Part shown: positions 34,636 to 38,739 of the stretch, one piece after another
Layout of the letters: each line of letters opens with the position of its first letter
Position numbering within the stretch: the stretch's first letter is position 1
From: Enterobacteria phage KhF3
Sequence record: KT184315.1
Strand: one strand, 5' to 3'
DNA length: 64,000 bases
The notes under the pieces: generated by a model
Seen by the model: the letters and a program-made list of their open reading frames with translations, nothing else
The model's database searches: none
What the model was told of the DNA's origin: nothing
Translations under genes and position numbers: made by a program

Positions 34636-34812
34636 TTACTTATTAAACATTTTACCAGAACCACCACAAATAGGGCAACAACCTGCTCTTGTATACCCTT
34701 CTCCGTTACAGTAGTCACACTTTTTGTGTTCTGCAAAGTACTTACAAAGAAGGCAAACAAATATTGCTACACTACCAAGTGACAGTAAAATTTCTATCCA
34801 ATATGCTTGCAT
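34636..34812 (-). CDS. small membrane protein with zinc ribbon (58 aa, not in ORF track)
   Basis: ATG 34810-34812 with GAGGTGA RBS; hydrophobic helix then CDYC ... CPICGGSG. Confidence 0.45.
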   Translation of the reverse strand: MQAYWIEILLSLGSVAIFVCLLCKYFAEHKKCDYCNGEGYTRAGCCPICGGSGKMFNK

Positions 34813-35129
34813 GACTCACCTCTCATGTTTTTGTAAAGGATAAAGCTTCTGTCATGAACGATACTTGTAGATACTGCAAAGTTACTTTCAAGCATCTGTT
34901 TGTTTGGATTGTAGAAGCTTTTTTTAAACTCGTCAAGCGCAAACTGGTGATGTTGTGGAAGACCTTTTACACAAACCTTTATTGTGATTGCTGCTGCAAC
35001 CTTTCCAGTCAGTTCTTCTTTAGCTGCTACTAAAATTTTGTTGAGGAACTTATGACCATCTTCAGTCTTCTTGATGTTCTCCCAACGTTCTTCTAAGACA
35101 ATGTTGATGTTCATTTCTTTGATTTTCAT
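34794..35129 (-). CDS. hypothetical protein
   Basis: 111-aa ORF. Confidence 0.45.
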   Translation of the reverse strand: MKIKEMNINIVLEERWENIKKTEDGHKFLNKILVAAKEELTGKVAAAITIKVCVKGLPQHHQFALDEFKKSFYNPNKQMLESNFAVSTSIVHDRSFILYKNMRGESCKHIG

Positions 35130-35145
35130 AGTTTCTCCAGAAATT

Positions 35146-35166
35146 AAAAAGGCTCCCGTAGGAGCC
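35146..35166 (-). terminator. rho-independent terminator
   Basis: Minus-sense GGCTCC-TACG-GGAGCC followed by T5. Confidence 0.7.
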
Positions 35167-35181
35167 TCTTATCATATACTT

Positions 35182-36963
35182 TTAAAGCTGCTTGTCAATA
35201 TTATTTCGAATATCACCAAGCGTTGTGTAACCGAACTGCTCAGAGTCGCTAAAGACTAAACGTAAAGCACAAGCTGGATGTTCAAGTACATCTGCAAAGC
35301 TCTGGAATCCATAGCCATCTACAGCTTTCAACTTATCACCATCCCACATAGGTGCTACACCACCAAAAGCAGACTTCTTAACACCACTATCTGTTTTAGG
35401 GTCTTTTGCAAGCATAATCTCTTTACCACCAATGCTTGCAAGAGTTGCTTTAACAGCAAATGCAAAGGTGTCACGAGTCATGTACTGGTAAGTGTAAGAG
35501 CCTACGCCAAACACTACGTTAGAGCTTGCAAAACCCATTTCATACAGACGCTTCAGGATTTCGTTTGCACGTTCCAGCGTGATAGAGTCGCCATAGATAA
35601 GGCCAATGTGCTCATCCAGTACCTTAAAACCTTTAGAGTTAATAGTTCCTCCAAAGATGTTGTACAGTGTCTTAATAGCTCCATCAATCTCAGCTACAGG
35701 ACGTGTTACAACGTTTGCAGAACCAACCATATAAGCGTTTTTCAACAGCACTGTATCAGCAACTTCAAAGTCTTCTCTGTCAACAACCATTTCGTAGCCT
35801 TCTGACAGTAGCCATCCAGCAATACCATAATTGATGTTTTCAAGCTTCATGTTCAGAACAGCATTCAACATTGTGTCGCTGGCTTCCAGCTTGCTAAGGT
35901 GCTCATAATAAGCCTTTTTAGCACATTCTAAGTGGATTGCTTTATAACCTGTGACAATATGTACAGGGTCTCCAGAGTCAGGGCGAATTACCAGTTTACC
36001 GTCACGTTCCATAATTTCTTTACGAAGTGCTGGTAAGATTTCTGACACAGTTCTCCAGAAGTTATAAGTATCTGAAACAATGCTTGCAATACCTGTTGGG
36101 TAAGTTTCTGTTAAGAAACGACGGAAGGTTTGTAACTCACCTTTAAAGCGTCTTTCTTCTTCAACCAACTCATTACCACCTTCCCAAGCAATGTTTGCAC
36201 ACATTACAGAGTGCTCAGTGGCTGGTACAGAACTACCAATATCAGAGATTGGGTAGGACTGTCCATAGATTCGTTTAGCCGTGTATACAGCAGGGAAGCT
36301 ATCAGTCCCTTTAAAGCTGGTTAAGTGACCTACAGCGTTAAATGCGTCATCAGTAAAGCCGGACATACCACGCATAGCAAAATCATGGCACTGATAAGGT
36401 AAATGTAAGTCATTGTCACAAGTAAGGTCAGCCCACTTCTTACAGATGCGTTTGTAATGCAATGCAATAGTTGCAATGGTGCAAGCCTTCCAAATTTCAG
36501 CAGAGAAAGCATCTTCCAGATAACCTGCTACCCAATGAAAACCTGAAACAGTGTTCTGAAAGACAATCATCGGGACACGCATTGGAACAACTGTGCCTTC
36601 TTCTACAGCGTATACTTCAACTGGTAGATAACCTAAGTCGTGAAGTGCTTCCCAATGCTCTCGACCGATAGCATCTTTACCCAGAACACCATTCATGACT
36701 TCTAAGATTTCATCAATGGCTTCTTTTTTATCACGTTCAAAGAAAGTGGCATTCCAGTGGTCTATCAAGTAATCTTTAACAAAACGTTGAATACCAAAAG
36801 CCACTACACCGTCAATTGCTAAGGGGCTGTTAAACCATTTGTCGCTACGTGGTGTCAGATTGAACATCAAGTACTCTGTTGCGCTAGGATACTGGTAAAC
36901 ATGACCAGATTTGTAAGCATCTGCATTTAAACCTGCTGGTACTGCATAAAGTGATTTAGTCAT
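35182..36963 (-). CDS. nicotinamide phosphoribosyltransferase family protein (NAMPT-like)
   Basis: 593-aa ORF; N-terminal DAYKSGH and later SDTYN segments resemble the NAMPT/NAPRTase family. Confidence 0.6.
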   Translation of the reverse strand: MTKSLYAVPAGLNADAYKSGHVYQYPSATEYLMFNLTPRSDKWFNSPLAIDGVVAFGIQRFVKDYLIDHWNATFFERDKKEAIDEILEVMNGVLGKDAIGREHWEALHDLGYLPVEVYAVEEGTVVPMRVPMIVFQNTVSGFHWVAGYLEDAFSAEIWKACTIATIALHYKRICKKWADLTCDNDLHLPYQCHDFAMRGMSGFTDDAFNAVGHLTSFKGTDSFPAVYTAKRIYGQSYPISDIGSSVPATEHSVMCANIAWEGGNELVEEERRFKGELQTFRRFLTETYPTGIASIVSDTYNFWRTVSEILPALRKEIMERDGKLVIRPDSGDPVHIVTGYKAIHLECAKKAYYEHLSKLEASDTMLNAVLNMKLENINYGIAGWLLSEGYEMVVDREDFEVADTVLLKNAYMVGSANVVTRPVAEIDGAIKTLYNIFGGTINSKGFKVLDEHIGLIYGDSITLERANEILKRLYEMGFASSNVVFGVGSYTYQYMTRDTFAFAVKATLASIGGKEIMLAKDPKTDSGVKKSAFGGVAPMWDGDKLKAVDGYGFQSFADVLEHPACALRLVFSDSEQFGYTTLGDIRNNIDKQL

Positions 36964-37008
36964 CTCTTAATCTCTCTCAAAATGGGGCTTGGAAGCCCCT
37001 ATAAAGTT

Positions 37009-37890
37009 TTAATCAAGGTTTGCTACAGTAACTTGGCTATAATGTGTTAAGCCACGGTCTTTAGCTTCCCCTAAAGAGTTTGTAGTGTAGATATGGTCAA
37101 TACCATTGTCAAGCAAGTTTTCAACATCTTTAGAGAAAATACCATGAGTTACATAGAGTTCCACACGTTTTGCACCTGCTTCACGAAGATGTTTGGCTGC
37201 TTCTATGAAGGTTCGACCTCCATCACAAATATCATCCAGAATCATGACAGTTTTATCTGTCAAATCAACATCGTCAAGGATTCGCATACCAGTAATTTCA
37301 CCAGTCTTAAGGTTACGCACCTTAGACATTGTGATGTATGGTTTATCCACCTCTTTAGCAGTCTCTGCAATCTTCTTAGCAGCACCTGCATCTGGGGCTA
37401 CTAAGTAATCAATCAGTGGGTCATTTGCGTAGTGAACTGCAATCTCCTTTTGAGGAATACTCTGGAAGCAGTTAAACAGGTTATCTGGAACGTAACTGTG
37501 AGGGTCAACTGCACAGACTGCACCAAATCCCATTGCATTTACCTGTTTAGCAAAAACCTTTAAAGCTGCTGCGTCGCCTTTAAACATGTGACGGTCATAA
37601 CGTGCATTTGGTAAGTAGTAAAAGATGACAGTCTTTAAAGCATAATCATGAGGAATTAAATCATCAATTGCTTCTTTAGCAAGTGCCACAGCAAATAATG
37701 TATCCTTATCATAACCTTTTACAATCATAATCACATTGTTGATGGATGATGCTGCATAAGCAGTGAAATCAACAAACTCTGGAGAAAAGTGTCCACCAAT
37801 CTCACCAGAAGGAAATTGGATGATGTTAAACTCTTCTTCATGAGTTCCTTTAGTTGGTGAATGAACTGTAACACGGATAGATGTTTTCAT
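37009..37890 (-). CDS. ribose-phosphate pyrophosphokinase family protein (PRPP synthetase-like)
   Basis: PRTase-type motif VMILDDICDGGRT; ATG 37888-37890 with GAGAGAG RBS (track start is TTG). Confidence 0.65.
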   Translation of the reverse strand: MKTSIRVTVHSPTKGTHEEEFNIIQFPSGEIGGHFSPEFVDFTAYAASSINNVIMIVKGYDKDTLFAVALAKEAIDDLIPHDYALKTVIFYYLPNARYDRHMFKGDAAALKVFAKQVNAMGFGAVCAVDPHSYVPDNLFNCFQSIPQKEIAVHYANDPLIDYLVAPDAGAAKKIAETAKEVDKPYITMSKVRNLKTGEITGMRILDDVDLTDKTVMILDDICDGGRTFIEAAKHLREAGAKRVELYVTHGIFSKDVENLLDNGIDHIYTTNSLGEAKDRGLTHYSQVTVANLD

Positions 37891-37901
37891 AGTTTTCTCT
37901 C

Positions 37902-38180
37902 TCAATCAAAAGTTACGTTTGTTACTGCCATTGCAGATTTGCATTTTGCAGGGTCTACAACGTGATAAAGTACACTACAGTTACCTGTGCTGTCTGGTAC
38001 AGGTTTAACCCATTGTTGCTTGACAGTTGGTTCGCCTAAGTCTTTGTAAGAACCATCTGTAAAGTTGTTTACCATCTCAAGTGCAATTGGCTCTGGAACA
38101 TGACCACGTATCATGTACATTTCACAACCATTACCTCCTTCACTGACTAATGGTAAAATCTCCCACTTTTCTTTAGCCAT
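37902..38180 (-). CDS. hypothetical protein
   Basis: 92-aa ORF. Confidence 0.45.
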   Translation of the reverse strand: MAKEKWEILPLVSEGGNGCEMYMIRGHVPEPIALEMVNNFTDGSYKDLGEPTVKQQWVKPVPDSTGNCSVLYHVVDPAKCKSAMAVTNVTFD

Positions 38181-38688
38181 TATAAGTTGCCCTATAAACT
38201 GTCTCGAACTTCAACAGGAGAGATATTGCCAAATCTGTATAGTTGTTGTCAAGCACATCTGGCATATTATTTTTGATATATTTCTCTTGCTCTTCATAGG
38301 TCATCTTAGGGATACTTAGGAGGCTATCTCCTTGCTTCTGGTTATCAGTTTTAGTTTGGATAAACCAGTTTGCACAGTGATGTTCACCACCTTTTGTAAC
38401 AGGTTTGTGATGACCTAATGTAAATGTTTGCTTACCCGTATACCTGCAAAGATTGTTCAGTGTTGCAATGGTGTTCTTCACAACACACCATTCATACAGG
38501 TTATCTATTGTGTAGTGTGGGTAATAACGGACAAGTGCTCTTTCACGGAAGTTATCACGATTCCAAAGAACCATGTGATTAGAATTTGAAGGGTCATATT
38601 TGTGGGAGTCTATAAACTCTTGACGCTCATCAAAGCTGAGTCTTAGAACTGACATTGCAACCGAACGTTTCAGGTTTGACAGATACAT
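38173..38688 (-). CDS. putative HNH-motif protein
   Basis: GHHKPVTKGGEHHCANW resembles the HNH core. Confidence 0.4.
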   Translation of the reverse strand: MYLSNLKRSVAMSVLRLSFDERQEFIDSHKYDPSNSNHMVLWNRDNFRERALVRYYPHYTIDNLYEWCVVKNTIATLNNLCRYTGKQTFTLGHHKPVTKGGEHHCANWFIQTKTDNQKQGDSLLSIPKMTYEEQEKYIKNNMPDVLDNNYTDLAISLLLKFETVYRATYNG

Positions 38689-38739
38689 TTTACCTCCAAA
38701 ATAAAAAGGGAACCTTTACAGTCCCCTTATAGTATCTGT

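What the first reader, a model, noticed from the sequence alone, without database searches (positions are those of the whole stretch)
35182..37890. Adjacent NAMPT-like and PRPP-synthetase-like genes: candidate NAD reconstitution module
A nicotinamide phosphoribosyltransferase family protein next to a ribose-phosphate pyrophosphokinase family protein matches the two-enzyme pairs described for phage NAD salvage (as in vibriophage KVP40) and for NARP1-type NAD reconstitution (a PRPP-synthetase-like ADPR-pyrophosphate synthetase plus a NAMPT-like transferase), which counter NAD-depleting defence systems. Which pathway this pair belongs to cannot be decided by eye.
Basis: partly seen in the sequence, partly recalled or inferred. 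Interest (0 to 1): 0.6.

Follow-up and report, generated by a model that had tools for sequence, protein, structure and literature searches.

The report
Known phage NAD-rebuilding operon (NARP1)
These two adjacent genes are the already-described phage pathway NARP1, which rebuilds NAD+ from the fragments left by NAD-destroying bacterial defences; the same operon in a sister phage (Bas63) is where the pathway was discovered, so this is a correct but ordinary finding.

Summary
Two co-oriented minus-strand genes sit at the stated coordinates: a Prs-like gene (37009-37890, 293 aa) followed by a NAMPT-like gene (35182-36963, 593 aa). The window is a Felixounavirus, a FelixO1-like E. coli phage.

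The pair is NARP1 (Adps + Namat), not KVP40-type salvage (NARP2).
- The NAMPT-like protein is 99% identical to Bas63 gp80, and the Prs-like protein is 78% identical to Bas63 gp79. These are the two genes whose deletion defined NARP1.
- The window's Prs-like sequence is 100% identical to that of phage KhF2, which the discovery paper's Table S1 lists as Namat-associated.
- The Namat-specific adenine-clamp motif is present (GSYTYQYMTRD), as are the catalytic residues and the Adps catalytic lysine (K190).
- The best structural match is the SPbetaL1 Namat crystal structure.
- No NMNAT, Macro-domain or RyR-domain accessory gene was found.

Novelty: already known.

Two details seem undescribed in the papers read. 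One is a confidently folded 77-aa module inserted in Namat, found only in this phage group and with no recognisable fold relative. The other is a sharply bounded, deeply diverged N-terminal half of Adps, which occurs in two identity classes across phage records.

The parts
37009..37890 (-). adps: ADP-ribose pyrophosphate synthetase (Prs-like), 293 aa, first gene of NARP1
   Evidence: PF14572/PF00156 and TIGR01251 are matched, but every bona fide Prs equivalog model scores far below its cut-off. It is 78% identical to Bas63_0079 and 100% identical to the KhF2 protein listed in Table S1 of the discovery paper. K190 aligns with the catalytic K162 of SPbetaL1 Adps. It is only 25% identical to host E. 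coli Prs.
35182..36963 (-). namat: nicotinamide ADP-ribose transferase (NAMPT-like), 593 aa, second gene of NARP1
   Evidence: 99% identical (586/593) to Bas63_0080. Best PDB sequence and fold match is SPbetaL1 Namat 9w5w/9w5x. Catalytic and NAD-contact residues are conserved.
35470..35502 (-). Codons for the Namat selectivity-clamp helix motif GSYTYQYMTRD (aa 488-498)
   Evidence: Matches the Namat-specific consensus GSX-Phi-X-Phi-X-Phi-TRD defined in PMC12774641. Located by script and conserved in all 51 aligned homologues.
36814..36846 (-). Codons for the Namat selectivity-clamp loop (aa 40-50, SDKWFNSPLAI), with Lys42 followed by Trp43
   Evidence: The paper states that when Lys or Tyr is the third loop residue, the fourth residue stacks on adenine, and gives Bas63 as the example. 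The window sequence is identical to Bas63 here.
35683..35913 (-). 77-aa insertion (aa 351-427) in Namat relative to the crystallised SPbetaL1 enzyme; a compact alpha/beta module of unknown function
37426..37890 (-). 5' half of adps (N-terminal ~155 aa): sharply bounded block diverged from the Bas63 allele
   Evidence: DNA identity to Bas63 is 62-77% in this block and about 95-98% on both sides. Protein identity is 67% for aa 1-155 and 91% for aa 156-293. Identity bands across phage records are bimodal.
36964..37008 (-). 45-nt adps-namat spacer with a 6-bp GC-rich hairpin (36984-36999) and the namat ribosome-binding site
   Evidence: Sequence read; fold energy -12.7 kcal/mol, z -2.1. In Mushroom-type relatives an HNH homing endonuclease gene occupies this spacer.
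35147..35170 (-). Intrinsic-terminator-like hairpin plus U-tract, starting 12 nt after the namat stop codon; likely 3' end of the transcription unit
   Evidence: Terminator scan. 10-bp stem, -16.6 kcal/mol, z -3.3, 0 of 200 shuffles fold as well.
38706..38728 (-). Upstream terminator-like hairpin, with a promoter-like site at 38757-38729; probable 5' boundary of a four-gene unit (171-aa ORF, 92-aa ORF, adps, namat)
   Evidence: -14.1 kcal/mol, z -2.5. The boundary is inferred from consensus scans only.

Best explanation
[quoted passage not shown] When a host defence system such as SIR2-HerA, type I Thoeris or DSR cleaves NAD+ into ADP-ribose and nicotinamide, Adps (37009-37890) uses ATP to pyrophosphorylate ADP-ribose to ADPR-PP. 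Namat (35182-36963) then replaces the pyrophosphate with nicotinamide and regenerates NAD+ directly, without using host salvage enzymes. This lets the phage replicate despite NAD+-depleting immunity. Shown here: gene identity, near-identity to the experimentally characterised Bas63 operon, conservation of catalytic and specificity residues, a structural match to Namat, and the absence of NMNAT and accessory genes. Inferred from the literature on orthologues: the chemistry and the anti-defence phenotype.
For: The window is a Felixounavirus. Namat is 586/593 identical to Bas63_0080 and Adps 230/293 identical to Bas63_0079. [quoted passage not shown] The window's Adps is 100% identical to KhF2's. 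The paper's Table S1 lists that sequence as having Namat within 10 genes, and Table S2 lists KhF2's Namat as 'Adps-associated'. Adps K190 aligns with SPbetaL1 K162, the residue whose mutation kills activity, and the ATP-site residues F26/G29/E30, R97/D99/R100 and H131 are conserved. Adps fails all Prs equivalog cut-offs, for example 91 bits against 297. In Namat, all residues listed as NAM/NMN/AMP contacts in the SPbetaL1 structure are conserved or conservatively replaced, and the diagnostic motif GSYTYQYMTRD and the K42-W43 loop are present. The AF2 model (pLDDT 94) matches the Namat crystal structures 9w5x/9w5w best, with TM 0.95 on target and E 3e-53, ahead of NadV and human NAMPT. Gene order is adps then namat, 45 nt apart, with a terminator straight after namat.
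Against: No enzyme from this phage or from Bas63 has been assayed in vitro; the authors report that Bas63 Adps did not purify well, so the biochemistry comes from SPbetaL1, which is 28% (Adps) and 47% (Namat) identical to the window proteins. The window's Adps carries a different N-terminal allele from Bas63, 67% identical over aa 1-155, so its phenotype rests on homology rather than identity. Namat enzymes keep some PRPP-dependent NMN synthesis in vitro, so a minor conventional salvage contribution cannot be excluded. Felixounavirus Namat carries a 77-aa module that is absent from the crystallised enzyme and has no known role.
Confidence: 0.93

Rival explanations
1. Conventional nucleotide/NAD salvage, as the database annotations say. 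The Prs-like enzyme makes PRPP from ribose-5-phosphate, the NAMPT-like enzyme makes NMN from PRPP and nicotinamide, and host NadR or PncC completes NAD+ synthesis.
For: All public records annotate the genes as ribose-phosphate pyrophosphokinase and nicotinamide phosphoribosyltransferase. Pfam, NCBIfam and PHROG names agree. [quoted passage not shown]
Against: [quoted passage not shown] SPbetaL1 Adps gave no product in the control reaction testing Prs activity (ribose-5-phosphate with ATP per the figure legend, PRPP with ATP per the text). The window protein fails every Prs equivalog cut-off and is 25% identical to host Prs. The adenine-clamp motif that enforces ADPR-PP preference is present.
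Confidence: 0.04
2. NARP2 (KVP40-type). The NAMPT-like enzyme works with a phage NMN adenylyltransferase to build NAD+ from PRPP, nicotinamide and ATP.
For: The NAMPT-like protein belongs to the same broad family as KVP40 NadV, and some records carry the gene name nadV.
Against: No NMNAT/NadR-like sequence is present in the window or in the complete genome of the closest relative KhF2 (tblastn, E<=1: none), and no such domain occurs in the ten neighbouring genes. The gene is Adps-associated, which places it in the NARP1 clade, and the authors found no phage with both pathways.
Confidence: 0.01
3. A functionally shifted NARP1 variant. The diverged N-terminal allele of Adps and/or the inserted Namat module change substrate range or regulation, or serve to escape a host factor that targets NARP1.
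For: A sharply bounded block of 62-77% DNA identity lies inside an otherwise ~96% identical locus, and Adps identity across phage records is bimodal. The confidently folded insertion is specific to this phage group and has no fold relative.
Against: All catalytic and ATP-site residues are conserved in both Adps alleles. Bas63 Namat carries the same insertion and behaves as canonical NARP1 in vivo. Other Namat lineages carry unrelated insertions at the same loop, so the site may simply tolerate insertions.
Confidence: 0.05

Closest known systems
NARP1 operon of Escherichia phage JohannRWettstein (Bas63), genes bas63_0079-0080 (Osterman et al., bioRxiv 10.1101/2024.02.11.579819)
   Same: Same genus (Felixounavirus) and same genomic position between the rIIA and nrdG/nrdD clusters. 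Same gene order and lengths (293 and 593 aa). Namat is 99% identical and includes the 77-aa insertion. The C-terminal half of Adps is 91% identical.
   Different: The N-terminal 155 aa of Adps are only 67% identical, a different allele. Bas63 has an extra 114-aa gene (bas63_0081) just downstream of namat that the window lacks.
NARP1 of Bacillus phage SPbetaL1 (biochemically and structurally characterised Adps and Namat; PDB 9w5w/9w5x; PMC12774641)
   Same: Same two-gene architecture. The catalytic Lys of Adps, the Namat catalytic core and the clamp motif are conserved. The fold match has TM 0.95 on target.
   Different: Identity is 28% (Adps) and 47% (Namat). SPbetaL1 Namat is 491 aa and lacks the 77-aa module and a ~15-aa insertion at aa 258-274. 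The clamp loop uses Arg40, where the window has Lys42-Trp43.
NARP2 of vibriophage KVP40 (NadV Nampt + NatV Nmnat/Nudix)
   Same: A NAMPT-family transferase, and the same outcome of restoring NAD+ to counter NAD+-depleting defences.
   Different: NARP2 pairs Nampt with an NMN adenylyltransferase, uses PRPP, and has no Prs-like gene. The window has Adps and no NMNAT.
Cellular Prs (E. coli prs b1207) and NAMPT/NadV (human NAMPT, H. ducreyi NadV)
   Same: Same folds and shared phosphoribosyl-transfer chemistry. The ATP-site and PRPP-loop residues are conserved.
   Different: Adps is 25% identical to E. coli Prs, is shorter, and has K-x-R-N-x-x-T-G-E-I in place of the DKRRPRANVS catalytic loop. Namat carries the adenine clamp that Nampt lacks.

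Membership tests
NARP1 (Adps + Namat) | Prs-family gene and Nampt-family gene adjacent and co-oriented, adps upstream (Namat within 10 genes of Adps) | tested here: met
   The genes are 45 nt apart on the minus strand, adps first.
NARP1 (Adps + Namat) | Adps belongs to the phage Adps clade rather than to cellular Prs | tested here: met
   78% identical to the clade seed Bas63_0079. 100% identical to the KhF2 protein listed in the authors' Table S1 with Namat association 'Yes'. Fails all Prs equivalog cut-offs. No independent phylogeny was built here.
NARP1 (Adps + Namat) | Adps catalytic lysine (SPbetaL1 K162, equivalent to B. subtilis Prs K197) | tested here: met
   K190 aligns with SPbetaL1 K162.
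NARP1 (Adps + Namat) | Namat catalytic core: SPbetaL1 F189, R192, D215, R306 and D308, plus the catalytic His | tested here: met
   F195, R198, D221, R327, D329 and H251 (in ATEHS) are all present.
NARP1 (Adps + Namat) | [quoted passage not shown] | tested here: met
   GSYTYQYMTRD at aa 488-498, with Y490 and Y494. The Phi3 position is Met rather than the commoner Asn/Val.
NARP1 (Adps + Namat) | Selectivity-clamp loop supplying an adenine-stacking residue (third residue Arg, or Lys/Tyr followed by the stacking residue) | tested here: met
   S40-D41-K42-W43, identical to Bas63, which the paper cites as the Lys-type example.
NARP1 (Adps + Namat) | Enzymology: ADPR + ATP gives ADPR-PP; ADPR-PP + nicotinamide gives NAD+, with ADPR-PP preferred over PRPP | not testable with these tools
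   Shown in vitro only for SPbetaL1, P. foliorum and DyoEdafos enzymes, and in vivo as ADPR-PP detection for Bas63.
NARP1 (Adps + Namat) | Counter-defence phenotype against NAD+-depleting systems | not testable with these tools
   Shown for the Bas63 delta-79-80 mutant on SIR2-HerA hosts; inferred here by orthology.
NARP2 (Nampt + Nmnat, KVP40 type) | A phage-encoded NMN adenylyltransferase in the same genome and no Adps | tested here: not met
   Adps is present. A NadR-type NMNAT probe gives no tblastn hit in the window or in the whole KhF2 genome, and the neighbouring genes have no such Pfam domain. About 24 kb of this phage's own genome lies outside the window.
NARP1-AP (NARP1 with the Adpp phosphatase) | Macro-domain ADPR-1''-phosphate phosphatase gene within the operon | tested here: not met
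   No Macro domain in any of the 14 genes scanned around the pair.
NARP1 with RyDEP | RyR-domain (PF02026) cADPR glycosidase gene inside the NARP1 locus | tested here: not met
   No PF02026 hit in the neighbouring genes.
Canonical ribose-phosphate diphosphokinase (Prs) | Scores above the NCBIfam equivalog cut-offs for Prs | tested here: not met
   The best equivalog/subfamily Prs models score 44-104 bits against cut-offs of 296-536. Only the broad TIGR01251 subfamily model passes, 123.5 against 113.

The most novel reading that the evidence does not exclude
The features specific to Felixounavirus-type NARP1 are functional adaptations rather than neutral decoration. These are the 77-aa orphan-fold module inserted in Namat after the catalytic RPDSGDP strand, and the two deeply diverged N-terminal allele classes of Adps that appear to be exchanged by recombination. 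They could provide regulation, Adps-Namat docking, or escape from a host factor that senses or inhibits NARP1, which would add a further layer to the NAD+ arms race.
Probability: 0.1. Interest if true: 0.45.

Novelty: already known. Interest (0 to 1): 0.12.

Why it matters
It confirms that this phage carries a working-type counter-defence against NAD+-depleting immunity such as SIR2-HerA, type I Thoeris, DSR and SEFIR. That is relevant to predicting host range and to choosing or engineering therapeutic Felixounaviruses. It adds nothing new about the pathway itself, because the orthologous operon in Bas63 is the discovery case and the window's exact Adps sequence is already tabulated in that study. 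The public annotations ('ribose-phosphate pyrophosphokinase', 'nicotinamide phosphoribosyltransferase') are out of date and should read Adps and Namat.

Tried and rejected
1. Conventional Prs/Nampt salvage. Rejected on the Bas63 genetics and metabolomics, the failed Prs equivalog thresholds and the clamp motif.

2. NARP2. Rejected because no NMNAT is present.

3. Extended NARP1 with Macro (Adpp) or RyR (RyDEP) accessories. No such domains in 14 neighbouring genes.

4. The two tightly coupled upstream ORFs (92 aa and 171 aa, HNH-like) as conserved NARP1 partners. Rejected: the 92-aa gene is confined to Ounavirinae, and the 171-aa homologue in Stephanstirmvirinae lies next to a helicase, not NARP1.

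6. P0064 (843 aa) as an Adps-Namat fusion. Rejected: it is a Namat homologue interrupted by a roughly 330-aa intein-like insert.

7. An independent Adps/Prs phylogeny was not built. I relied on identity to catalogued clade members instead.
Full report
**Observation**

The window holds two co-oriented minus-strand ORFs at the reported coordinates.
- One is a 593-aa ORF at 35182-36963.
- The other is a Prs-like ORF at 37009-37905. Its ATG at 37890 gives the 293-aa product annotated in all relatives.
- The 593-aa protein matches Pfam NAPRTase and NAMPT_N, NCBIfam NF006629 (1.9e-140) and PHROG 448 (3.9e-202).
- The 293-aa protein matches Pribosyltran and Pribosyl_synth, TIGR01251 (7.8e-36) and PHROG 619 (4.6e-97).

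**Context**

The region is 96-98.5% identical in DNA to many Felixounavirus genomes (FelixO1-like myophages of E. coli, Salmonella and Shigella). The best matches are KhF2, LF82P5 and LMP25. Most of the window aligns with the KhF2 genome at 93-99% identity, in seven blocks. The pair lies in a long minus-strand gene block between rIIB/rIIA and nrdG/nrdD.

**Identity with the discovery case**

Hit H67 is Escherichia phage JohannRWettstein (Bas63, MZ501086), also a Felixounavirus.
- The window's NAMPT-like protein is 586/593 identical to Bas63_0080.
- The Prs-like protein is 230/293 identical to Bas63_0079.

Osterman et al. (bioRxiv 10.1101/2024.02.11.579819) discovered NARP1 through exactly these two Bas63 genes.
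- Deleting genes 79-80 reduced plating about 20-fold on SIR2-HerA cells and worsened NAD+ depletion.
- The effect did not need host PncC or NadR.
- ADPR-pyrophosphate appeared only when wild-type phage infected defence-carrying cells.
- The enzymology was established with the SPbetaL1 homologues. Adps converts ADPR + ATP to ADPR-PP. Namat converts ADPR-PP + nicotinamide to NAD+ and prefers ADPR-PP over PRPP.

The window's Adps is 100% identical to that of phage KhF2. The authors' Table S1 lists that sequence with 'Namat within 10 genes' = Yes, and Table S2 lists KhF2's Namat as 'Adps-associated'.

**Residue-level and structural tests**

For Adps, I aligned the window protein with Bas63, SPbetaL1 and FADO Adps and with host E. 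coli Prs.
- K190 aligns with SPbetaL1 K162, whose mutation to alanine kills activity.
- The Prs-type ATP-site residues are conserved: F26/G29/E30, R97/D99/R100 and H131.
- The window protein is only 25% identical to E. coli Prs.
- It scores far below every Prs equivalog cut-off.

For Namat, every NAM-, NMN- and AMP-contact residue reported for the SPbetaL1 crystal structure is conserved or conservatively replaced.
- The core residues are D15, Y17, F195, R198, D221, A248, R327, D329 and G458-D459.
- The clamp residues are G488-S489-Y490, Y494 and T496-R497-D498.
- The Namat-specific motif GSX-Phi-X-Phi-X-Phi-TRD reads GSYTYQYMTRD.
- The clamp loop has K42-W43, the Lys-type arrangement the structural paper illustrates with Bas63 (PMC12774641).
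- All 51 aligned homologues keep the motif.

An AlphaFold2 model built on that alignment has pLDDT 94 and pTM 0.92. Its best PDB matches are the Namat crystal structures 9w5x/9w5w (E about 3e-53, TM 0.95 on target). These rank ahead of H. ducreyi NadV and human NAMPT.

**Excluding the alternatives**

NARP2, the KVP40 type, pairs Nampt with an NMN adenylyltransferase, and the authors found no phage with both pathways.
- A NadR-type NMNAT probe finds nothing in the window or in the whole KhF2 genome.
- The neighbouring genes contain no NMNAT or Nudix domain. They also lack the Macro domain of Adpp (NARP1-AP) and the RyR domain of RyDEP.

This is therefore the plain two-gene NARP1.

**Locus anatomy**

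- adps and namat are separated by a 45-nt spacer with a short GC hairpin and the namat ribosome-binding site.
- A strong intrinsic-terminator-like hairpin begins 12 nt after the namat stop codon, at 35170-35147. It folds at -16.6 kcal/mol and 0 of 200 shuffles fold as well.
- A second terminator-like hairpin at 38728-38706 suggests a four-gene unit: a 171-aa HNH-like ORF, a 92-aa ORF, adps and namat.
- The two upstream ORFs are lineage-specific and are not linked to NARP1 in other phage groups.

**Features not covered in the papers read**

First, Felixounavirus Namat has a 77-aa insertion (aa 351-427) just after the catalytic RPDSGDP strand, relative to the crystallised enzyme.
- tblastn detects it in only 253 Ounavirinae records, out of about 1,500 records with a Namat homologue.
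- Insertion-bearing homologues reach down to 46% identity.
- It is predicted with high confidence as a compact alpha/beta module.
- Other Namat lineages carry unrelated insertions of 37-99 residues at the same loop, so the site tolerates insertions.
- The structural paper aligns Bas63 Namat but does not mention the insertion.

Second, DNA identity to Bas63 is about 96% across the locus but falls to 62-77% in a sharply bounded block, 37426-37925. This block is the 5' half of adps.
- At protein level, aa 1-155 are 67% identical and aa 156-293 are 91% identical.
- Identity bands across phage records are bimodal: 154 records at 90% or above, 7 at 80-90%, and 91 at 60-80%.
- This suggests two allele classes exchanged by recombination.
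- Catalytic residues are conserved in both, so I treat this as a variation within NARP1.

**Verdict**

It is already known. The orthologous operon in the same phage genus is the discovery case, and the window's exact Adps sequence is in that study's tables. Interest is low. The residual novelty lies only in the unexplained Namat insertion and the Adps allele dimorphism.

Noticed in passing
window 37426-37925 (5' half of adps): A sharply bounded block with only 62-77% DNA identity to Bas63, inside a locus that is otherwise ~96% identical. Adps identity across phage records is bimodal (154 records at >=90%, 91 at 60-80%), suggesting two N-terminal allele classes exchanged by recombination.
   Followed up: partly
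window 35683-35913 (Namat aa 351-427): A 77-aa module specific to Ounavirinae, inserted after the RPDSGDP catalytic strand. It is confidently folded (pLDDT ~93-97) but has no fold relative in the PDB or BFVD. Other Namat lineages carry unrelated insertions at the same loop.
   Followed up: yes
window 36964-37008; L009:2397-2888: In Mushroom-type Felixounaviruses an HNH homing endonuclease gene (AP2 domain) sits exactly in the adps-namat spacer. The window's spacer is empty, at 45 nt.
   Followed up: partly
window 35130-35181; L001:3603-3947: Bas63 has an extra 114-aa gene (bas63_0081) immediately downstream of namat. It is absent from the window, which has only a 52-nt spacer holding the terminator. 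Gene content next to NARP1 is therefore variable.
   Followed up: no
window 38173-38688: A 171-aa ORF (PHROG 3500) with a weak HNH-endonuclease-like match at aa 58-124, overlapping the next ORF by 8 nt. There is a second local dip in identity to Bas63 (81-82%) at 38426-38625. Homologues in Stephanstirmvirinae sit beside a helicase.
   Followed up: partly
window 35171-35198: A near-consensus sigma-70-like site (TTGACA-16-TATGAT, 11/12) overlaps the last codons of namat and abuts the terminator hairpin. It may drive the downstream 111-aa ORF at 34794-35129.
   Followed up: no
P0064 (metagenomic Namat homologue, 843 aa): The Namat sequence is interrupted between RPD and SG of the catalytic RPDSG motif by a roughly 330-aa insert that starts with Cys and ends ...GN before Ser. 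This is the pattern expected of an intein in the active-site motif.
   Followed up: partly
PHROG 12872 (547-position profile): One PHROG profile matches both window proteins: Adps on profile positions 49-224 and Namat on 236-534. This suggests that some phages encode a fused Adps-Namat protein.
   Followed up: no
L005:781-2973 (Klebsiella phage KP13-26, Stephanstirmvirinae): This phage carries annotated nadR and pnuC genes (nicotinamide riboside uptake and salvage). Other phages of ~143-150 kb also hold Adps homologues. Whether both routes occur in one genome was not checked.
   Followed up: no
window 34636-34812: A 58-aa ORF with a hydrophobic N-terminus and a CxxCxGxG-type cysteine-rich (DnaJ-like zinc finger) C-terminus. 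It is annotated as 'DnaJ-like' in phage Mushroom.
   Followed up: no
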